Below are positions 34,787 through 47,857 of a DNA stretch of 64,000 nt, in pieces. Numbering within the stretch: the first letter of the stretch is position 1; each line of letters begins with the position of its first letter. This stretch comes from Paraspadella gotoi (Eukaryota > Animalia > Chaetognatha). The DNA is taken from the NCBI GenBank assembly GCA_051294375.1, contig JBJCIZ010000239.1, forward strand, positions 2,369,476 to 2,433,475, read 5' to 3'. The position numbers and the translations under genes are program-made. Below the pieces are notes generated by a model. That model searched no databases. It saw only the letters and a program-made list of their open reading frames with translations, and was not told the origin of the DNA.

Positions 34787-36172
34787 GGTGGCCCGCCAGC
34801 CTCGAGTCGTTTCAAGGATTTGCCGTCGTTTTTTTTTATCCTTTTGATTCGCTACTTTCGCGTTTTCTCTTTTTCGTCCTCCATATCCCGAAAACTATCT
34901 CATTCAAACTCATCATCCGTGCTCTTCAATTCGAAGTTCAGCCATCACAATTTTACCCAGTTTAAGTAGGAACGTACGCGCCCATCATTGAGATCTTTGA
35001 TAGCTTCATCTCCTCGGAGGGCGAATCAATGTCGTCGATCCAGTAATGGCTACGTTTATAAACCCCTTTAGTCCTAGCCACAGGGTAAAAGTTGAGAGAT
35101 AAATTGGTTTATAAATAGTGCGGACTGGAATATTCTTCATTCAAAATTCATTCTTTTAATGTGATTATAAGTTATTATCTTTAATATTGTTATTTTTCTT
35201 ATTGATTATCATCCCGAGATGTAAGCAATATCTGGCGCTTTACCAGTTCTGTGATTATTTTTTTGGTGGGCCGTCTTTTTACTGTTATTCTGGGGATAGT
35301 TTTTTGTTTTTAACTTAAATTATCGTTATCATTAACGGTGATCTTTTTTTCGTTAAAATGGCAATACCTTTTATGGCGCAAATTGAATTGGCATTATCAT
35401 TTTTAAATCCCGAATCATGATACGTTTGTTCTTTTGGATGAAGTCGGAATGCTTCCTCGGCTTCCGCCAGAGTTTTCCCCTTTCGTCTCAACTGCCTCTG
35501 ATTCTGACTCTTAGTCTGACAGACGACGACGACGACGAAATGAGCGAAGCGTGATTCCTCTTCCTCGCTCCAAGAATAACAACCAACCAAAGCGTTTAGC
35601 GTTACTACTCCCGAATGAGAAAGAGAGCTTCTCGCTTCATTCATATTTTCGATTCAACTTCCTGGAGGATGACATTTTCCTTTACTTTTTTAAGGGTTTT
35701 TATTTATTTGTTTTTCACTATTTTAAAACTTTTCGCTTCTGCAGTTACTGTATCGAAAACAGTGTTTTTGGTAGTTTTTATATAAACGGCAAATGTGTTA
35801 CAATTTAAAGACAACTTTAAACCTAATCTGAAAGACTTTCTAAACATAAATGGGCTTAATTTTACATTCGCCGGTTAGGCAGTAATTATTGATTAATTAG
35901 GTTGGGGGGGGTTTGAGGTTCAGGTAGTTTGGTAACAGTTTTCATCATTTTTTATAGTAAAAATTTATATACATAAGTACTCATAAGTTAGCGAATGTAA
36001 AATTTTAACTTTAGCGTGAAAAACCTTTGTTTTGCCTTTTTTCTTATATATAATAATAATATTTTGTCATTTTATTTTTAATATTATTTTAATTATATGC
36101 ATTTTGATCCGTCTATTTGTTTATATTGACTATCCTACAGAAATTTATTTAAATATAAACACCGACTTTGCA

Positions 36173-37807
36173 ATGTCACTAAGGAGCAGCGTTCGAAGAT
36201 CAAGGTAGGCAGTCGAAATGACAGCCACCGCTTTTATTTCATGTTCTTTTAAACTTATCGTTAATTTTATTAACTTAATTATTGTCGCCTTTTTCAGGTC
36301 GCGTTCTCGCTCGCCCGTCCAGAAGAGAGACTCCTACACCCAAATTTGCTACAAATGTAACAAAAAGGGTCACATCTCCAAGGAATGCGGGGAAGCATCG
36401 GTGTGCTACACCTGCGGACAACAGGGGCATATTGCGAGAGAATGTAGAGAAGGAGGAGGGTCCACATGTTATCATTGTCATAAAAGGGGACACTTCGCAA
36501 GAGAGTGTCCGGAGGCCGGAGGTAGGAGGGCGAGGAAGCCGTTAAGTATAACTCTGTCGCGCGTGGTGGGAGGAGAGAGCTAGACCTTGAGGGATGAAAG
36601 GAGCGGACACCAGTAGTAGCGGATGGTAATGGGGGAGCGCGCAAGAGAGAGAGAGAGAGAGGAGCTTAGGAGCGGGGGGAGTGTGGATTGGATGAGGGGG
36701 AGGTGGTTTCGTAGTGTTGAAGAACACGATTCGGAGTCAGAAGTCTCAGGTAAAACGTTCAAAATAAATTTTGATGATTTTTTTGGTTTTTTTCAAGTAA
36801 GGCACCTTGTAGGGTTTGAATAGATTCGCCGTTGTAATTTTGAAATGAGACATTTCTCCAGGTGCCCGAAATTGTTGTAACGGAGTAACTCGTCACGAAA
36901 AAAAAAATAGAATTAATCACTAAACTGTTAACATTTCGGGATTTTATCATTATAGGTGGGCCTCGTTATTCTGGATCTCGCGGACCGCCTTCTTATAGTC
37001 GGGACAGTTACTCCAGCGTCGGTGGCTCAAGGAGCGGACTTCAGTGTCACAAATGTCAAGGCTTCGGACACATGGCCAGGGATTGTCCTACCGTCGCCGA
37101 AACAAGATGTTTCAAATGTCAGGTAATTTACCATCTTGGAAAATGAATAAGTCGGTAACTTTTGTAGCTTTTTAATTTAAAGATCGAAAAAAAATAATGA
37201 ATATGAAATTTATATAAAAATGAGCTTTTTCTGATTCAAATGAGCCTATTTTGTGCGTAATATGATTGGAAATAAAAGAGAAGAATAAAAAAATGATTCA
37301 TATATCAAAACCCCCAATGGTTATATTAAGTATATATCCAAAGAAATATTACCATTATGTGATTAATGATTGTTTTTAAAAAATAGTTATAGAAATTGAG
37401 AAGGTCAGATTTTTTTTAACGTCTTTTTTTTATTTGAATCTTACACCTGTATTTTTAATCGCATTTTATCGAATTATTTTTTACCTCCTATTCGCGAATA
37501 AAATATTGCATTTTTTAGGGGATCGGCCACATGGCTCGAGAGTGTCCATCGCGAGTTCTGGTCGGAAGTGATGGCAAAAATGTTAAATGCTACAAGTGTG
37601 GAAAAATGGGTAAGAGCATACCACTTTTGAAAAAAAATGTTCGGATTACAATTCATCATTAAATTTTATAAATTTTTTTCAATTAAACGTAGTGATACCA
37701 AATTATAGTATTTTGAAAGAGATATATGGAGAAGTCGTCAGTCATTCATTTTAAACTATTTCTTCTTCACACTAGGTCATATGGCACGTGATTGTAAATT
37801 GGATTAA
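36173..37807 (+). CDS. CNBP-like CCHC zinc-knuckle protein, paralog 1 (RS-rich N-terminus)
   Basis: Five exons (36173-36204, 36298-36521, 36956-37122, two short 3' exons); six CX2CX4HX4C knuckles; RSRSRSRSP N-terminus. Confidence 0.88.
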
Positions 37808-38018
37808 AACGGTTTCAAATCTCCGTTAAAAAACTTCCCTCACTTCATATACTTAGAATCTTTTCCAAAAGACGACTAACTCAATTTATTATCTCCATTC
37901 ACCAATTATAAATATTCTTGTGTTACCTTATGATAACTTGTATATTTTGATGTATTCTTTTTTTTTGGACGAATCTTAGTTAATCTTTAATTTAAGACGT
38001 CTTCTTAAAACTATCAAA

Positions 38019-39382
38019 ATGTCTGACGATCGCTTGTGTTACAAATGTAGCAAGAAGGTAAGTTTGGCTTTTTTGCAATTTTCCTTGGTTTTAATTACAA
38101 TTGCTCTCCTTCTTCGATACTTTCCCATCAGGGACACATTAGTCGCGACTGTCCCGACGGGACAATGTGTTATAATTGTGGAAAAACTGGACACATTGCT
38201 CGCGAATGCCCCGAATCCGGTGGAAAAGTTGACGAGGATCGCCAAAAGTGTTACAATTGTCATAAAAAGGGGCATTTCGCTCGTGATTGCACTGAGTTCG
38301 GAGGTATGACCACACAACCATCTTGTGCAGGACGGACGCAGCGCATCGTTCGGCTGTGTGGAGAGGGAGGACAGGAAGTTTTGGGCGGGAGAGATGAGGG
38401 GTGATGATGGGATGTAGTAGTTCGAGATTGAGAGTGAGAGAGGGAGTGGTGAGATTTGTTTAGTAGATAGTGGGCAATCGGTTTCTGCCCCATTCGCCCG
38501 AATCGGTGAGGTGAGTCTGGAAACCCGTTCTACCTTTTAAAAATATCTCAAAAGCGAAAAAAAAAAAAATAAAAAGGGTGGACTTTTTAATCTAGGAGGC
38601 GGTCGCGGTGGTCGTGGATTCGGACGGGGCGGAGGCAGAGGAGGATTCAACATGGGAATGGGTCGTCAACAATGCCACCGGTGTCAAGGGTTTGGTCATT
38701 TTTCGAGAGATTGCCCCTCGGAGCACAGATGCTATAAATGTCAGGTTCGTTTCGCAAGTCTTGATGGTGATGAGAGAGTAAAAATCTAAAATTGAACGTT
38801 CGAGCCTGCTGATGGCGAATTATGGTGGTTATGGGCGTGAAACTGTGACCTTTCATTGCGCAAAGTCCAAAGGTTGTGACTTACGGGCCCGTAAGTCGTG
38901 TGGCGAGCATGGAAAGCTGTAGACGGCGTCGATCTTCCTTTAAAGTACTGAGACGCTATTCACAAGGACGTTTATAAATGTTTGCTTTGTTATAATTTAA
39001 GCCGTTTAAAAAAAAGAATGCACTTGACTCAAACCGATTAATTCTTCTTCTTTAGAGTTGGCACGGTTACATATTTTATATGGCTGATATATTTCTAACG
39101 ATTGATTACTATTTAGATTTTTACTAAAAACCCCTTCTCTAACTGGATGAATAATCCACTATTAAATTTATACTGTTATATACATTGCGCAGGGATACGG
39201 CCACGTTCAAAAAGATTGTCCCTCTCAAAATCACGTGGGTCAAGATGGACGAAGTGTTAAATGTTTTAAATGCGGGAAAATAGGTATTTTGTTTTATTGA
39301 ACGCCTTGTAAGTTAAACGAACATAATTTTAATTTATTTATTTCTAGGTCACATGGCGCGGGAATGTAAAGTCGACGAATAA
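38019..39382 (+). CDS. CNBP-like CCHC zinc-knuckle protein, paralog 2 (RGG box)
   Basis: Five exons (38019-38057, 38132-38303, 38596-38744, two short 3' exons); six knuckles; GGRGGRGFGRGGGRGG; last three intron positions shared with paralog 1. Confidence 0.88.
38758..38954 (+). ncRNA. Candidate intronic box C/D sno/scaRNA
   Basis: C box GTGATGA 38767, CTGA 38809, terminal CTGA 38948, flanking gtc/gac, 20-bp palindrome 38878-38897, GC-richer than the rest of the intron. Confidence 0.5.
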
Positions 39383-40121
39383 ATAAAAAAATAAACACTC
39401 CACAGTTCAGCAAATGGACGTTGCTTGTTGCGAATAAGTTATCCTCATCATTGGTGCATCTTCGCACTTAATTAAATGTTTCTGGTTTCATTATTTTCTC
39501 CTACTTTTGTAGGATTGGTTTTACCGGTTTAATTTTTTTTATTCTCGAGCATACACGCGATTTCTTTAATCTTTGGGACGGCGCTGTTGTGCCAAGCGTT
39601 TTAACAATCTTAACATTTTAATATTAGTCGTGATTATTTTAAATTTATAAAATTTGTTATACCTCAGGTGTGTGCTAAAAAACTCCACTCCTTTTCCTTT
39701 TATTCAATAATTATAAAATAAATTATTTTAGTAGTAAAATGAAAATGATTCAATTATAGTTTATCAACAATATACTTCTATTTTTTTTTTCAGTTTTCAA
39801 ATGTATTGAGTGGATAGTTTTATGCATAGCAGAGTAGATAGAATGTTTTGTCCTTTTTTTCCTTACAATATAGTAAATTTCTGGTACATCCGACGCTGTC
39901 TCAAAGTCTTGATTCTTGTTTACTTATAGCTATTTTTATTCAAACATTTGTACAATGTGTTCTGCGGTTTTAGCTCTAACTTTTACGGGGTAAAGTTTGA
40001 CTTCTCCGTTCATTTATAAAAATGTTTCGTTTTGGTAATCAGCTTCGTTAGAAAATGAATTTTATTTCTCTGTAATTAAAATTGCTTAATTATTAGCTTT
40101 TTCATCTTAGTTATTCTCAAA

Positions 40122-41280
40122 ATGGCCGACTATGCAAATGTCAAAACGGGAAAATTAAAGTTAAAAGGCGAAAAATCCAAAAAGAAAAGAAGGAAAAGAA
40201 CTCACGACGAAGAGGCAGGAAAGTAAGTAAAAAGCATGTTTACTTTTTTAATATGTAAAATAGAATTCATGAGTTTTACCCTGAAATGAAGGTCGACTTC
40301 TACAGAAAAAACTTCCTCGTTAAAAAAGGACGACAGCCTAAAATACGGTGGGTGGTGGGCTATCACTTCCGTCACTCAAGCTATCAATAACATTTCTATT
40401 GAAATTATGCCCCGGAGTTTTGTCTTCGCATTGGAGTCTGGATATTTTAAGGTTATTTTTAGATGAATTTCATCTTTGAGATTCTAAAGTAGTCGATGGT
40501 CAATAGTTTTTTTATAATTATGATGCGCTTAACTAATTTCTTTTTATGTTTCAGGTTGGTGACGTTCACGAAAAAGGAGAGGGACCAGCTCCCGAGGAGA
40601 TTTACACGGCGACTCGAGTTACGGACACTCATCTTGCGATTAAATCTGGATATGGAAAATACTTGGGCGTTAACAAAGAAGGCGTTGTCACTGGAACCTC
40701 GGATGCGATTGGTAATAAAAGCGACCTTGAATTACTTTTTATCAATTGCTATCATTATATATTTAATATATTTAATTTTCCATTTTCGTTAATCGAAAAC
40801 TAAAGGTCATCGCGAGCAATGGGAGCCAGTTTTTCAAGATAACGAATTAGCCTTGTTGGGCGCCAACAATTGCTTCCTTTCTGTCGACGAAGAATCGCGC
40901 ATCGTTTGTCGAAGCAAAACTGCAGGTGGGGATCGATGAGCCGCCTCATTTTCGAATCGCCGGTTTAGTAGTGTTTAATTATTTATTAATTATTTACAAT
41001 TCTATTATTATTTCGTCTCTCAGGCGACGACGAAAAGATCCGAATCCGCTCCAATGCGGAGGTGAACCGCTTCGTCGACGATCGACCCGAGGAAGAACGC
41101 GGATCTTTGAAAGACGCCGAAATCAAATACGCCAAAAAATTCCAGAGTTTTGAGGATCGAAAATGGAAGATCAACGACGGTCACGTCGACGTTTTGAAAA
41201 AAGCGCGACTCGAGGGAAATCTCCACGAAGAACTCTTAGACCGACGGGAAAAAATGAAGTCGGATAAGTTTTGCAAATAG
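40122..41280 (+). CDS. FRG1: FRG1 protein
   Basis: [39 protein letters not shown], terminal [21 protein letters not shown]; five exons. Confidence 0.95.
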
Positions 41281-41411
41281 GGATTCGTAACCCCCCATCC
41301 CCCGTCCCGTCCCCCCCCTTTCGGACATCGACATCTCGTATTTGTTATTACTTACATTTTTTCTATCGCATTTTATTCTATGTTCAGCGGTTAAAAATAT
41401 TAATAAAAAAA

Positions 41412-44400
41412 ATGAGTTGGAAACCTTTCGGCAAGAGCGCCGCTTCTTCTCGCCGCTCCAACGTTTTCATCCAGGGCCTCGATCGAGATATCGATCGCGA
41501 GCACAAAAAGTTGGAACAATTGGACGAAACCACGAAAAAGTTGATGAAAGACTTGAAAAAGTCAAACTATTCCACGAACGGTTTCGCTCAGGCTAACCTC
41601 AAGGTAATGGCCAACCTGAAGACGAGCGCCTTTTACTCGAACGACGAGGTCTTTGCCCTTAACGTCGACGAGTGTTTCCAAGCGGCCAAGGAGCTCGAGA
41701 ACGCCTCGCAGTCCGTCATCTCCGTCACCAACAAGACTGCGGTAAAGGACGTTGATCTTTACTCTGATCATTTGTTTGTTTTTTTTTTGCTTGGTTCGTC
41801 GATATTGTTCTTCAATTGTTGTTTAATTTGTTAGTTTTCATAAATGTTATGTTCTGTTATATTCGCCATATTTAGGGGTTCACATTTTCAACCCTTTATT
41901 ATATTTAGTATTTACAAGCTATTTTTTTATTACAGTTGCGGCAAAAATTTTTTTATTACTTTATCAAAAATGAAAAACGTTATAGTAGTTCATTAAGTAC
42001 TATGTCTCTTGACTCAATAATGACACAACTATGAGTGAGACTCGATCGTCCCGCTCTGCTGGACGAGGTCACGGACGGACCACTTCTCGTTATCTCGATC
42101 CCACATCATCCTTTCGCTTGGAGGACATTTCCTCGGCCATAGAAAACGCCAACGAAAATCTAAAAGGCATCGACGACCTTGTCCAAAATTATTCGCAAGT
42201 CACCTCCCTTCAATCCGAAACTATTAAGAGGCTAAAGTCGGATCTACGAAAGAGCCAGTCCGGGACCGCCGATTTCGATGATGACCGGAACGTCGCTCGT
42301 CCAGAAGCGCGCACTTTTTATTATCCTCATTCTACTTACCAAGAAAACTGTTCATCCTTGCCAAACTATTCTTATACTTGCTCTCAAAACTATACTCGGC
42401 CATTGAGTTATTCCGAGCGCGTTGAAGCCCCTCTCGGGAAATTGGAGATGGAAGACTCTCTAGATCGACGCGGTCATGAGAAAGAAAAATGGAGAACCAT
42501 GAATAGGTTTATGGAGAAAGTCAAGGAAGGAAACAACGATACTCGAAACGATCTTAAGGAAGTTCTGGATCGACGACTCGGCGACATGGAGAAAACGCTT
42601 CAAGATTCCAAGGGATTGTCCCTAAAGGCTTCTAACAATATCAGTGATCGTCTTGGATTAGCCCGAGCTCGCCCAAATCCGACCCTTTTTTCGTTCCCGA
42701 GAGGTGAAAAGGATATTGGGGCGAGCGCCGTGTTGGACAACGTTTCCGCGGAGCTCAAGAAAGCTTTGAAGGAGGAAGAAGAGAGGCGCGTGGAGGATGA
42801 GGAGTCATTTTTCGCCGACATCGTTACTCCGAGAAAGACCGACGAAAAGGGACACTCTAACTGGCTAAAAATGAAGAAGGACGAGAACAAGATTCTGCGC
42901 GAGAATTTAGAAGGATTGAAAAGGGAGATGAATCAAGTGAAGGGCGGGGAAGGATTCTTTTTGACGCGAATCGAAGAACTGGAGAGACAAACGGAGGATT
43001 ATCAGCGGGAAAAAGAGAAAGCTTCTCTGATGGTGGAATCCTTGAAATCGAGACAGGACGAACGTTTAGCCGTTGAAAAGAGGAACAGAATTTTGGCGGA
43101 TAACGAGAATTGCGAGTTGAGAAAGGAAAACTCGAGGTTGATGCGTCAAATTAACGATGCCAAAGAAGAGGCGAGGGATTACAAACGTAGTTCTAAGGAT
43201 TTTAATGAAATTGATGTGAAAGGATTGCGAGATGAATTAAGTAAGAAGGACGCCTTAATAAAAGAGCTTTCTGTTAAGATTAGAGAGATGCAAGGTTCGG
43301 AATCCAATACCAAAGAAGAAACTCAGGAGGCGATTCGTTCGGCGGACGAAATGCGGCAGAGTTTAACCAAATTAGAAGAGGAAAAAGATTCTCTATGCGA
43401 CGAAATTCGGGAGTGTCGGGAGCGAATTTTGGCTCAGAAAGATAAATACGAAGAAATGACGAGCAAAGCTCACGATGCGATAAGACAGTGGAAATTAAAG
43501 GTGAAAAAGCTGGAAGGCGAAAATAAATCGTCGGAAGAATCGTTTCAGGAATTGAGAACCACCAACGGCGATCTCGTTCGCGAATTGGAGAAGCACAAGT
43601 CCGACTCTATCAAGAACGGAGAGCGAGGAGAAAAATTACTCGGCCAAGTGGAAGAATTGGGAGAAGCCAACTCGCGTCTTGAAGAACAACTTCGCATCAT
43701 GGAAATTCAGAACGAGGAGATGAAATCGGAACTACTGGAGAAAAATTCCGTGGTAAAGGATCTACGAAACGGACGCGAAGTTATCGAAGCCGAGGCGATC
43801 GAACTGCGAGCGAAAGTGAAAGAAGGGAGAGAGGAGAGATCCTCGCTCGTTGACAAACTTAAAGAATCGAACGGCGAATTGAATAGATTACAAAGAAATC
43901 TTGAGTCGGTCGAAAATTGGCGAGAAAATCGACTGGAAAACGATGATCAAAAAGAGAAAGTTATCGATGAGCTCAGGACCAAAATAGATGAACTTACTCG
44001 AGCGAAGCGTCGACTAGAAGCCGAGAACGATGAACTGAGAACGACATCAAATCAAGAAAATAAACGATCAGAAAATAAAGTTGCGAATTTAGAGACGAAA
44101 TTAGCAGAAGCGAAAGAGCGCGAGAGTGAAATCTTGCAAGAGTCATCGAACCAGCGGATTCTTACTGAAGCAGAAATGCAGCGTTTGACGATCGAGCTGG
44201 AAGAAAAAAGTGGTACTTTTGAAGAGTCTAATCTCGTCACTATTCGAACTTTGGAAGACAACTTGACGAAATTAGAGCGAGACCACGAATTCTTGACCCA
44301 AAAAAACCATGACAATCAAATGAAATATATTAAGATGAAAGAAAGATTAGAAGAACACGATCAGGTCATGCGGGAGTACAACAGCCGTTTAGTTGGCATG

Positions 44401-46114
44401 AACGCCAAATACGACGATCTCAAAGAGACCCTTCATCGAAAAGAACGGGAATTGCTCGAGCTCTTCCGCGCCATCGATTCGGATTTAGACGAACTCGTTA
44501 TTCTCGCATCTCGTTGTTCGACGCTCGAGTTTTCATCCAAAGCCCTCATTACGGTGACGCCCTCTACCGCCGACGGCGACTCGTTGTTTAAAGCTTTAAG
44601 GCCCAAAGTCAAATGGGTCTGCGAAGCGATGGCCAATCTCGGAGGCGAATTGAACGACGTCAAATCCAGCCTGGTCGCCCTCAATCACGAAAACGAAACT
44701 CTTCGCCAAAAAGTCGAGGACGAAAAAGTCAAACGACACCAACAAGATGCCGATCACGACGCCCAAGTAAACGACATTCATCCAATTTGGGCTCACTTTC
44801 TTCGTTCGCCGAAACTCACGCGGCGCGGGACATTCGTCGCTTACAGTCGCTATCCAGCTCGGATCCCCTCACTCCGACGGAAGTCTTCCAGATTTCTCCT
44901 CGATCCAAAGGGGAGATCGAGAAGCGATACCGCAACTACAAATCCTCCGTGGATAATCTTCAGCGGGACTTGATCGAAGTGACTAACGCCACACCGAGAG
45001 TCGTTTATGCGCCGACTCCGCCAAACGTATTCCGTGGGCCTCAGTTGACGTCGACGCCGAACGGATCTTCGTTTCGGCCGTTGCAGAAATCGCCCTAACT
45101 GCTCGTGTTTAAAATTGGAATGCTTGTTTTTACATACTACTGACTTATTACTCTAATACTATTAAAATTGCCATAGAGTTTTAAGAAGTACCTTTTTGTT
45201 ATCTTCCCTTCTCCATAAATTTTTTTTATAGATTTTTGCTAGTCACACTATTGTTACTGTTAGTGACTGTTAATGGTTGTTTTCTTCATTTTCATATATA
45301 TATATTTTTTTTTTTTGACGCGGTGCAATCAAGCGTGAATCAAACATTTTTTTTGACACAAAATAGTACATAATATCTTAAACTGCATCAGATTAGTGTG
45401 TCTTTGTTAACAATTTGGTTCCTTATTTTTGAAGTTGCATTTGTAAGGTTTTGAAATATTAGATTGTTGTTTTATTATTAATATTTAGTTTTATGTCTGT
45501 TTTTAGCCATTGTATTAATCCTTTCAGTCTGTCTGTTTTAAAAAGTTATTTTTTAAATATTTTTTTTTATTCAAATGGCAAAATTATTTAAAAACATGAT
45601 CTCAAAAATTTACCTTTAGAAAACTTATTACTATTTTTTTTATCATTATTACTCAGGTGGAGCCGGTTAAAAAAATATCCACCGTGTTCCCGGCCGCCCA
45701 ATCGGAACTAAAGAGGCGCAAAGAGAAAGCGGACGAGATGGAAAAGCTGCAGGTCAAAGCGGAGAAGATCCGCGAGAAAGATCGAACTGGTCCCAATATC
45801 GTCAAACTGGACGCGGCGGAAAAAAGTTTAGATCAGGCCAGGCGCGACTTTGATATCGTCAACGAGGCTCTACTCAGGGATCTCGTGGAATTTGATCAGA
45901 GGCGTGCCGAGTATTTCCAACCTTTGGTCGAATCTTTAGCGTGCGCTGAAGCCCTTTCTGCAAAGAATCGACTCGAGCCTGCGAGAAGGCTTTAGTGAAC
46001 ATGAAAGTCAGAAACGAACAAGGAACCGTCGTTTGCGCGAGTCTGGATGCGAGCAAAAAATCTGTTCAGGAAAAGTTGAACGAAATAAAAAATTTGTCTA
46101 TTGTTTCGAGGTGA
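41412..46114 (+). CDS. BIN3: Bridging integrator 3 (BAR domain); two exons, apparent 1-nt deletion near 45956
   Basis: MSWKPF, KKLEQLDETTKKLMKDLKK, VEPVKKISTVFP, EKDRTGPNIVKL, YFQPLVESL, KLNEIKNLSIV; intron 41742-45656. Confidence 0.85.
42031..45098 (+). CDS. CEP128: Centrosomal protein of 128 kDa-like coiled-coil protein nested in BIN3 intron
   Basis: N-terminal LEDISSAIENANENLKGIDDLVQNY..QSETIKRLK and AIRQWKLKVKKLE match recalled CEP128 motifs; exons 42031-44766, 44847-45098. Confidence 0.75.
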
Positions 46115-46663
46115 CAGCGCTTTGAACTCTAGTATGGTACACATGTGGGTTTTCCTGTCCCACAGTCGTTTCAGTATCGGGGGCTTCGGACTTTTATTTT
46201 TTCGTTAACTATCATGGACGCACTAAAACCGACTAGGTCATGCTTGCAAGCTTTCCATGAACCTAACACGGAACCCCGGACTAACAGTTTGTTATCGCCG
46301 ATGTTTTCAACTTTTCATTAACGTTGAGTGAAAAGATTGAATTAATTCTAATTAATTCATATTCAGAGTTACTCTATAGTCATATTTGTTTAGTCGTTAT
46401 CGCATCATGAGGTAGCTCCTATACAAAAATACATGTATTTTCTATATTTATTAAGGGCAAATGGTTGTTTTTTTTGTGATATTGGCTTTATAGGAATATT
46501 CATTTTGAAAACCCCTGTTCATTTTTTGCATCGTTGTCATTTTAAATATTATTTATGTTTTATTTATAGAATTTATGAATGAACGTTTTGTCGGGGGATG
46601 ATCCAGTTTTGACACTTGCTCAATCTCAAATTCTATCCCCCGCCCCTGGTTTTTTCCAAGAGC

Positions 46664-47401
46664 ATGATTTTGTCTTACTTTGTGATGGGCCTCAGAAACT
46701 TCGTCCTTTTCGCGGCAAAAATTTGGAGTTTTTTGCGCTACTTGTTCAAGAGGCAGGTCCGGTCCTTGATCCAGCACCAGACTATTCGTTACGAGAACTT
46801 CGCCCTCTCCCCCATTTCCCGCCAACGACTGTCGATGGTGAAACGCAAAGTCCTCGTTCTCGATCTGGACGAGACGCTGATTCATTCGCATCACGACGGC
46901 GTGATTCGACAAACCGTGAAACCGGGAACGCCGCCCGACTTTGTTCTCAAGGTGGTGATCGACAAGCATCCGGTCCGCTTCTTCGTCTACAAGCGACCGC
47001 ACCTTGACTATTTCCTCGACATGGTGAGCCAGTGGTACGACCTCGTCATCTTCACCGCCAGCATGGAGATCTACGGCGCCGCCGTGGCCGACAAGCTGGA
47101 CAACAATCGGGGCATCCTCACCCGACGCTACTACCGACAACATTGCACGCTCGACTTTGGCAGCTATACCAAAGACCTTTCGGCCGTCCACGCTGACCTC
47201 TCCTCCATCTTCATTCTAGACAACTCGCCGGGAGCCTACCGATCCTACCCCGACAACGCGATTCCCATCAAGTCTTGGTTTTCCGATCCCAGCGATACGG
47301 CACTTTTGAACCTTCTACCCATGTTCGACTCTTTACGTTTTTGTGCCGACCTTAGGAGCGTTTTGAGTAGGAATCTTCAGTTGCACAGACTTTGGCAGTG
47401 A
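46664..47401 (+). CDS. CTDNEP1: CTD nuclear envelope phosphatase 1 (Dullard)
   Basis: [45 protein letters not shown]; intronless. Confidence 0.96.
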
Positions 47402-47857
47402 TTTAAACAAATCGTTACGACGTTTAAACTTTTTTTTTCTAATACGAGCACCTCTTTCCTCCATTAATTTGGTTGTCGCTTCTATATCATTGTAAAATTT
47501 GTTCATATATACATTTAATTCACATTGTCACTGTCCAAGATTATGGGGTTCTAAAATTTTCGGAATTCTGCAATCTGAAGTTACAGGAAATTTTGTGTTT
47601 TTTCACCTTGAGATGATCGAAACGTGTCTCATAAAACTTCTTTTTGAAGAAATCCTGATTGCCTAAAATCTCATGGTTATTCACCTGCTCATTTTCTACT
47701 ATCTTAACGAGAGGTAATTAGTTCTCCATTAGTAAATAAACAATTTATTTAAATTGTCGTTCTTTTACACTTGAATGGTTTTGCAGGTTTACTCAATTCG
47801 AAAAACAATTCATATCATTGTTTTCCATTCATATTTCAGAAAATTCGATGTCTAGCT

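What the first reader, a model, noticed from the sequence alone, without database searches (positions are those of the whole stretch)
41742..45656. Complete CEP128-like gene nested on the same strand within the single BIN3 intron
Seen: the BAR domain is split (KTA|VEP) by a 3.9-kb intron, versus typical introns of 50-200 nt, holding a roughly 1000-codon gene with its own unpaired acceptor (ttttattacag, 41935), intron and stop. Same-strand nesting sets BIN3 cis-splicing against CEP128 trans-splicing and 3' cleavage. Possible solutions are a mutually exclusive processing switch, mRNA matured from the excised intron, or BIN3 exons joined across a cleaved precursor.
Basis: partly seen in the sequence, partly recalled or inferred. 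Interest (0 to 1): 0.78.

Follow-up and report, generated by a model that had tools for sequence, protein, structure and literature searches.

The report
Operon cistron nested inside BIN3 intron
In what is likely an arrow worm, a whole centriole-protein (CEP128-like) gene lies on the same strand inside the intron that splits a BAR-protein (likely BIN3) gene, and RNA assemblies show the spliced host message, a leader-capped nested message and a cut-short host message that end exactly at splice sites, so each precursor likely yields one gene's message or the other.

Summary
Real, not misassembly. A BAR-only gene (likely BIN3) is split by a 3,915-nt intron, spliced out in 3 of 7 runs. The intron holds an intronless ~1,021-codon CEP128-like gene (profile 117 bits, shuffles at most -33); its supposed intron is an assembly indel. 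RNA-like contigs show a chaetognath-type leader at 41936, poly(A) on the G at 41935 (cut-short BIN3 exon-1 RNA, 2 runs) and poly(A) at 45656, the host's own 3' splice site (1 run), with no AAUAAA. Neighbours carry leaders too, so this is a gap-free operon. Best reading (0.68): per precursor, cis-splicing gives BIN3 mRNA, or trans-splicing at 41936 severs the donor and a second trans-splice at 45657 ends the CEP128 mRNA. A leader on exon 2 is only inferred from contig breakpoints. Rivals: mRNA salvaged from the excised intron (0.13), intronic promoter (0.07), exons joined across a cut precursor (0.05). Closest: Ciona gap-free operons and the C. elegans tin-9.2/exos-4.1 'alternative operon' (recalled; paper unreadable). 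RNA ends rest on one study; no second species tested. The scan had not noted this elsewhere.

The parts
41388..41741 (+). BAR gene (likely BIN3) exon 1; leader acceptor AG at 41386-41387, ATG 41412, 110 codons ending KTA
   Evidence: Leader followed by the letters of 41388 onward in X8 and X6; aligns to P0002
41742..45656 (+). 3,915-nt GT..AG intron of the BAR gene
   Evidence: Joint 41740/45656 (cut +1) in X7, X8, X6; absent from DNA-like X1 and X2
41742..41935 (+). 5' part of the intron; kept as the last part of a cut-short BIN3 RNA (stop TAG 41832-41834, 140-aa product with a hydrophobic tail) and serves as branch/pyrimidine region for the nested acceptor
   Evidence: Contig 41714-41935 plus poly(A) in X8 and X6; translation
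41934..41935 (+). AG used as trans-splice acceptor of the nested gene and as poly(A) site of the cut-short host RNA; zero gap
   Evidence: Leader before 41936 (X6); poly(A) behind 41935 (X8, X6)
41936..45656 (+). CEP128-like mRNA, single exon, leader-capped and polyadenylated
   Evidence: X6 contig of 3,763 nt spans 41936-45655 with leader at its 5' end; poly(A) behind 45656 in X8
42031..45098 (+). CEP128-like ORF, ~1,021 aa coiled coil, intronless once window indels at 44220-44224 (-3) and 44779-44794 (net +1) are allowed for
45655..45656 (+). AG used as cis 3' splice site of BIN3 and as poly(A) site of the nested mRNA; likely also a trans-splice acceptor
   Evidence: Joint and poly(A) shown; leader on 45657 only inferred from two X6 contigs that start exactly at 45657
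45657..46114 (+). BAR gene exon 2, coding part (window lacks one T at 45954); protein ~262 aa
   Evidence: Pfam BAR E=1.9e-6, just under the cut-off; indel in 6 of 6 covering runs
40111..41387 (+). FRG1-like upstream cistron, four short introns, leader at 40111; poly(A) of the preceding zinc-knuckle gene's RNA at 40110
46570..47713 (+). CTDNEP1-like (NIF phosphatase) downstream cistron, leader at 46570

Best explanation
A CEP128-like cistron sits inside the BIN3-like intron of a leader-resolved operon, and each precursor is likely processed one of two ways: cis-splicing 41741 to 45657 gives BIN3 mRNA, or leader trans-splicing at 41936 likely cuts the RNA there and a second, inferred trans-splice at 45657 likely ends the CEP128 mRNA. 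Shown: the spliced BIN3 joint; the leader at 41936; poly(A) on the G at 41935 of an exon-1-linked RNA; poly(A) at 45656; leaders on the neighbouring genes; no AWTAAA near either end. Inferred: one upstream promoter; that trans-splicing itself makes the 3' ends (debranch, then adenylate); that loss of the donor leaves the exon-2 acceptor unpaired so that it takes a leader; that the excised lariat is discarded; that the two proteins therefore trade off against each other per transcript.
For: Leader at 41936 directly abuts poly(A) at 41935, the gap-free pattern described for Ciona operons (PMC1488885 section 14). The same pattern holds at 40110/40111. The co-product of trans-splicing carries exon 1: contig 41714-41935 overlaps the exon-1 contig and depths add up, X8 420.1 + 129.1 = 549.2 against 550.3, X6 68.8 + 40.4 = 109.2 against 117.2, so trans-splicing at 41936 happens on RNA not yet cis-spliced. 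Genomic letters after 41935 and 45656 are not A-runs, so the tails are not mispriming. In X6 two allele contigs start at 45657, not at the G (45656) shared by exon 1 and the intron, which needs a further predecessor not ending in G; the leader ends in A. No joint from 41741 to 41936 in 0 of 7 runs. In X6 the nested contig stops one base short (45655), like the 3' micro-heterogeneity reported in Ciona.
Against: No leader on exon 2 was displayed: 4 loose-end rows were hidden, and in X8 the exon-2 contig is not broken at 45657. The leader at 41936 and the tail at 45656 are each seen in 1 run, and all leader and tail rows come from one study (P2). None of the runs is on record as RNA; I infer it from spliced joints, leaders and tails. 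Only contigs were available, so no single molecule links a 5' end to a 3' end and depth cannot be read as expression. An uncapped intron fragment from a lariat route would be unstable, so additivity does not exclude that route. The X8 contig that starts exactly at 41936 has no leader letters, unexplained. The BIN3 donor (GTAAAG) is off-consensus, but so are 3 of the 4 FRG1 donors, so donor weakness does not explain the choice. No second species could be tested.
Confidence: 0.68

Rival explanations
1. Both mRNAs come from one precursor: BIN3 cis-splicing releases the intron, whose 3' end is the AG at 45656, and the intron is leader-spliced at 41936, debranched and polyadenylated into CEP128 mRNA.
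For: The nested mRNA ends exactly at the cis 3' splice site (X8). No leader on exon 2 was displayed, and the X8 exon-2 contig runs unbroken from exon 1.
Against: A cut-short RNA carrying exon 1 shows that trans-splicing at 41936 occurs before cis-splicing. Intron 5' depth shows no excess over exon 1 minus spliced. X6 breakpoints at 45657 point to a non-G predecessor.
Confidence: 0.13
2. CEP128 has its own promoter in the 194 nt of intron before 41936, and the cut-short BIN3 RNA is a separate by-product.
For: Two-promoter models are held open for Ciona and flatworm sites that share cis- and trans-splicing (PMC11155486; PMC12582326; passages). Transcription starts could not be mapped here.
Against: Poly(A) at 41935 on exon-1-linked RNA abuts the leader site; the 41742-41935 depth is fully accounted for by exon-1-bearing RNA; BIN3 itself is a downstream cistron with a leader at 41388.
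Confidence: 0.07
3. After trans-splicing cuts the precursor at 41936, the BIN3 donor stays tethered and is spliced to exon 2 across the break, which frees the CEP128 mRNA at 45656.
For: It gives the same ends as those seen.
Against: The exon-1 fragment is found polyadenylated and unjoined; nothing points specifically to joining across a break.
Confidence: 0.05
4. The 3' ends are made by an ordinary cleavage/polyadenylation complex that happens to cut at or next to the acceptor AGs and competes with splicing, so a precursor cut at 41935 yields no CEP128 mRNA.
For: Satou et al. raise this exclusivity for Ciona (PMC1488885 section 17). The X6 nested contig ends at CA (45655), a usual cleavage dinucleotide (recalled).
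Against: Tails fall on the G of an AG at 3 of 3 displayed sites (40110, 41935, 45656), and 2 of the 3 have no AWTAAA within 80 nt.
Confidence: 0.05
5. Misassembly placed the CEP128-like gene inside BIN3.
For: The window has many small indel errors here, and no single contig spans the whole stretch.
Against: DNA-like runs X1 and X2 cross both boundaries unspliced (X1 41318-42269 and 45324-46000; X2 41311-43188 and 45598-46380) and tile the interior; an X6 contig bridges the repeat at 45280-45323 that the tool skips.
Confidence: 0.02

Closest known systems
Gap-free (intercistron-less) operons of Ciona intestinalis and SL1-type operons of C. elegans (PMC1488885; sections 14 and 17 and passages read)
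   Same: Leader acceptor AG and upstream poly(A) site coincide; AAUAAA mostly absent; one general leader pool.
   Different: There the cistrons are whole genes in tandem. Here one cistron lies inside a coding intron of another, so both of its ends are acceptors inside the host gene and one is also the host's cis 3' splice site.
C. elegans 'alternative operon' tin-9.2/exos-4.1 (recalled from Morton and Blumenthal 2011; seen only as a reference-list entry; text not held)
   Same: As recalled: a gene inside a same-strand host intron, one precursor either cis-spliced to the host mRNA or resolved into a truncated host RNA plus a leader-capped nested mRNA.
   Different: As recalled it uses ordinary 3' cleavage about 100 nt upstream and the operon-specific SL2; here the gap is zero and chaetognath leaders are not operon-specific (PMC12460157 passage). 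Independent origin in another phylum.
Chaetognath operons, RPS14-PCNA in Spadella cephaloptera (PMC2481426 section 13) and the P. gotoi operon set (PMC12460157 passages)
   Same: Leader family (Table 3 SL2/SL4 3' end), near-zero gaps, housekeeping neighbours.
   Different: 'Nested' does not occur in the PMC12460157 main text; its operon table (xlsx supplement) could not be read.
Cholinergic locus (VAChT inside ChAT intron 1; recalled, lead from earlier notes)
   Same: Same-strand nested gene sharing upstream transcription with its host.
   Different: There the nested gene is cis-spliced to a shared non-coding leader exon; here the host exon is coding, no 41741-41936 joint was seen in 7 runs, and the nested mRNA takes a trans-spliced leader.
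Parallel nested intronic genes in the ctenophore Hormiphora californensis (PMC8527503 passages)
   Same: Same-strand nested genes in a trans-splicing animal; the authors note that they need a complex processing system.
   Different: The passages read do not map the processing; here the ends are mapped to the base.

Membership tests
Gap-free leader-resolved operon (Ciona/SL1-type) | Same-strand adjacent cistrons, downstream ones with a spliced leader | tested here: met
   Leader before 40111, 41388, 41936, 46570; its 15-nt 3' part is absent from the window
Gap-free leader-resolved operon (Ciona/SL1-type) | Upstream poly(A) added on the G of the downstream acceptor AG | tested here: met
   Both halves seen at 40110/40111 and 41935/41936
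Gap-free leader-resolved operon (Ciona/SL1-type) | No AAUAAA upstream of the cistron end | tested here: met
   AWTAAA within 80 nt at 1 of 6 acceptors examined (40110), none at 41935 or 45656
Gap-free leader-resolved operon (Ciona/SL1-type) | Unresolved polycistronic precursor on single molecules | tested here: inconclusive
   X7 and X9 contigs cross 41935 unspliced, but contigs are not molecules and may hold DNA
Alternative operon, tin-9.2/exos-4.1 type (features recalled) | Nested gene in host intron, host spliced mRNA, truncated host RNA and leader-capped nested mRNA all present | tested here: met
Alternative operon, tin-9.2/exos-4.1 type (features recalled) | Leader on the host's downstream exon | tested here: inconclusive
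   Not displayed; implied by X6 contigs starting at 45657
Alternative operon, tin-9.2/exos-4.1 type (features recalled) | Single promoter for both products | not testable with these tools
   No start-site data
Alternative operon, tin-9.2/exos-4.1 type (features recalled) | Intercistronic gap with separate cleavage and an operon-specific leader | tested here: not met
   Zero gap. It works like this class but is not filed as a member
Cholinergic-locus type nesting | Nested gene cis-spliced to the host's first exon | tested here: not met
   No joint ending at 41936 in 7 runs; contigs drop rare variants
CEP128 (PF28367) | Colinear profile match to named CEP128 proteins, N-terminal block and C-terminus included | tested here: met
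   HMM of 13 of the 28 PF28367 proteins: 117.2 bits, reversed sequence -47.6, 200 heptad-block shuffles at most -33; Atlas first hit CEP128 at 0.94, weak on its own
CEP128 (PF28367) | Subdistal-appendage location (recalled) | not testable with these tools
   Needs microscopy
BIN3 | BAR domain only, about 255-260 aa | tested here: met
   P0002 BAR E=2e-13 over 22-224 of 255 aa; 61% identity to the joined window protein
BIN3 | Orthology to named BIN3 proteins | tested here: inconclusive
   No named relative was returned; the name rests on recalled motifs

The most novel reading that the evidence does not exclude
A full protein-coding mRNA is matured from an excised spliceosomal intron: the BIN3 cis-spliceosome cuts the CEP128 mRNA's 3' end, a leader supplies its cap, and debranching plus adenylation finish it, so one precursor yields two proteins; the cut-short exon-1 RNA may in addition encode a tail-anchored half-BAR protein.
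Probability: 0.15. Interest if true: 0.87.

Novelty: new variant of a known kind. Interest (0 to 1): 0.63.

Why it matters
[quoted passage not shown] This locus makes it testable, because one AG (45656) is at once a cis 3' splice site and an mRNA 3' end, and another (41935) lies 194 nt below a working donor yet takes a leader and is skipped by cis-splicing. That breaks the classic rule that paired acceptors are cis-spliced (PMC1488885 introduction; already softened for first acceptors by PMC11155486). It would also couple the supply of a centriole protein and a membrane-curvature protein through one splice choice, in a phylum that gained trans-splicing independently of nematodes. Operon callers that look only at adjacent gene models (under 250 bp apart) would miss such cases.

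Tried and rejected
No whole genome was held, so the frequency of such nesting and paralogues could not be counted. X5 and X7 give nearly identical depths and may be one data set; I do not count them as two. X9 shows no joints and may be DNA or unspliced RNA. Word-indexed search with the nested protein: 0 hits among 7,990 candidates; the HMMER scan gave 7 hits, one of them (P0006) a low-complexity false hit. Pfam copy: no CEP128 family hit. PDB sequence search with P0002: 0 hits. Two metagenome scans for a relative's locus: 0 of 178 and 0 of 597 candidates confirmed, so conservation of the nesting is untested. Depth arithmetic for a leader-exon 2 contig in X6 left 2,380 depth-positions unassigned in bin 45539-45695, but X8 has unassigned depth there too, so I did not use it. 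Depth ratios of CEP128-like to spliced BIN3 differ between runs, but contig depth cannot rank genes, so regulation is not claimed. Hydrophobic tail of the 140-aa form: 5.8% of 20,000 shuffles and 8 of 748 AT-rich GT starts score as high; suggestive only. The sigma-70 scan does not apply to an animal and was ignored. Literature: 10 searches found no description of a nested leader-resolved cistron in chaetognaths and no readable text on tin-9.2/exos-4.1; three papers were not held; three PDF supplements of PMC12460157 have no CEP128/BIN3 hit and its spreadsheet was unreadable.
Full report
Setting. The window is from a compact animal genome with many same-strand genes packed head to tail. No whole genome was held. 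Eleven public runs were listed, none on record as RNA; I laid 7 of them, X8 twice. X8, X6 and X7 behave as RNA: they show GT..AG joints, and X8 and X6 also show leaders and poly(A). X1 and X2 behave as DNA. The leader found on the RNA contigs ends in the same 15 bases as the chaetognath SL2 forms in Table 3 of PMC2481426 (passages) and is not in the window, so the animal is likely an arrow worm; the species was not determined.

The host gene. Exon 1 (ATG 41412 to 41741) and exon 2 (from 45657) are separated by a 3,915-nt GT..AG intron. The joint is in X7, X8 and X6, from two studies; X5 does not cover the exons, and X9, X1 and X2 run unspliced. The joined protein is about 262 aa once a one-base window error at 45954 is allowed for (seen in 6 of 6 covering runs), and is 61% identical over its length to P0002, an unsplit 255-aa BAR-only protein. 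No named relative came back, so the name BIN3 rests on architecture and recalled motifs. The FRG1 introns next door are 69-103 nt, so the intron is an outlier because of what it holds.

The nested gene. One ORF runs from 42031 to the stop at 45098. The second frame matches the C-terminus of relative P0003 (46%). HMMER found 7 relatives; one, P0009, retrieved 28 proteins that all carry PF28367, most named CEP128. A profile of 13 of these scores the nested protein at 117 bits, colinear from the N-terminal block to the C-terminus, against -47.6 reversed and at most -33 for 200 heptad-block shuffles. It is a CEP128 relative of about 1,021 aa. It is intronless; P0004 matches only residues 524-622 between unrelated flanks, which hints at an exon of an intron-bearing relative. 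Retroposition into the intron is possible but weakly supported, since the CTDNEP1-like neighbour is also unbroken.

Misassembly. X1 and X2 cross both intron boundaries in unspliced contigs and tile the interior with overlaps; a short repeat that the tool skips is bridged by the X6 contig. No one contig spans everything.

RNA ends. X6 shows a 25-nt leader joined before 41936. X8 and X6 show poly(A) directly behind 41935, the G of the same AG, on a contig starting at 41714 in exon 1. X8 shows poly(A) directly behind 45656, the G of the BIN3 3' splice site; the X6 nested contig ends at 45655 with 19 further letters whose row was hidden. Leaders also precede 40111, 41388 and 46570, and poly(A) follows 40110. 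No AWTAAA lies within 80 nt of 41935 or 45656; 1 of 6 acceptors examined has one. Exon-1 contig depth splits into the spliced and cut-short branches (X8 550.3 against 549.2; X6 117.2 against 109.2), and the bin arithmetic shows no further contigs there. I use this as a check on the graph, not as an expression level. No joint from 41741 to 41936 appeared in any of the 7 runs, although that acceptor is only 194 nt below the donor.

Mechanism. Ciona operons lack intercistronic DNA, add poly(A) on the G of the acceptor AG and mostly lack AAUAAA; the authors suggest that trans-splicing itself makes the 3' end (PMC1488885 sections 14 and 17). Spadella RPS14-PCNA has a 3-base gap. Applied here: a precursor is either cis-spliced to BIN3 mRNA, or trans-spliced at 41936, which releases an exon-1 RNA that is adenylated at 41935 and leaves the exon-2 acceptor without a donor. 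A second trans-splice at 45657 would then end the CEP128 mRNA at 45656. The second step is inferred: in X6 two allele contigs begin at 45657 rather than at the G shared by exon 1 and the intron, which needs a predecessor ending in another letter, and the leader ends in A; but the row was not displayed and X8 shows no break there. Sharing of acceptors between cis- and trans-splicing is common in flatworms (PMC12582326 passages), which makes it plausible. The by-products would be a 140-aa half-BAR with a hydrophobic tail (chance 1-6%) and a leader-exon 2 RNA whose first ATG (45738) is in the BAR frame. I put this model at 0.68, salvage from the excised intron at 0.13, an intronic promoter at 0.07, joining across a cut precursor at 0.05, separate cleavage at the AG at 0.05 and misassembly at 0.02.

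Limits. All leader and tail rows come from one study; the leader at 41936 and the tail at 45656 from one run each. Contigs are not molecules. Two metagenome scans found no relative's locus. No functional link between BIN3 and CEP128 is shown; their roles in membrane curvature and centriole appendages are recalled.

What is known. Same-strand nesting is known, and noted as a processing puzzle in a trans-splicing ctenophore (PMC8527503 passages). From memory, C. elegans tin-9.2/exos-4.1 is processed in the same either-or way, but the paper could not be read and passages citing it do not describe the case. Ten searches found no such case for chaetognaths or for gap-free operons; the operon spreadsheet of PMC12460157 could not be read and may bear on this. 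What is new is the combination: a cistron whose two ends are both splice acceptors inside a coding intron, one of them the host's cis 3' splice site. Verdict: real; new variant of a known kind; interest 0.63.

Noticed in passing
window 47714-47839: Contigs of X7, X5 and X8 leave the window at 47713 and go on with the letters of 47840: a cis joint from a donor in the CTDNEP1-like 3' UTR to the acceptor of the next (glycosyltransferase, ALG2-like) gene, giving a two-gene RNA.
   Followed up: partly
window 36170-62083: A long same-strand run (zinc-knuckle gene, FRG1, BIN3 with CEP128, CTDNEP1, ALG2-like, then EME1-, SERAC1-, ALKBH1-, SERINC- and KTI12-like by my reading) may be one operon longer than the nine-gene record in PMC12460157. 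Only the first five were checked by Pfam or leaders.
   Followed up: no
window 45566-45634: Loose ends of 47-255+ letters in X1, X2, X5 and X7 just above the BIN3 3' splice site suggest a second haplotype with an insertion, or a repeat shared with another locus.
   Followed up: no
window 44353: The same long loose end in X1, X2, X5 and X7 inside the CEP128-like ORF: another locus shares a short stretch here.
   Followed up: no
window 41936-42033: The CEP128-like 5' UTR has three upstream ATGs with 4-10 codon frames, one ending at the main ATG; possible translational damping.
   Followed up: no
window 36170-39380: Zinc-knuckle (CNBP-like) gene built of several repeated knuckle modules with a long 3' UTR polyadenylated at 40110, the FRG1 acceptor.
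   Followed up: partly
window 41310-46637: Many one-base errors of the window against all runs (44220-44224, 44779-44794, 45535, 45954, 46637): frameshifts elsewhere in this assembly should be distrusted.
   Followed up: yes
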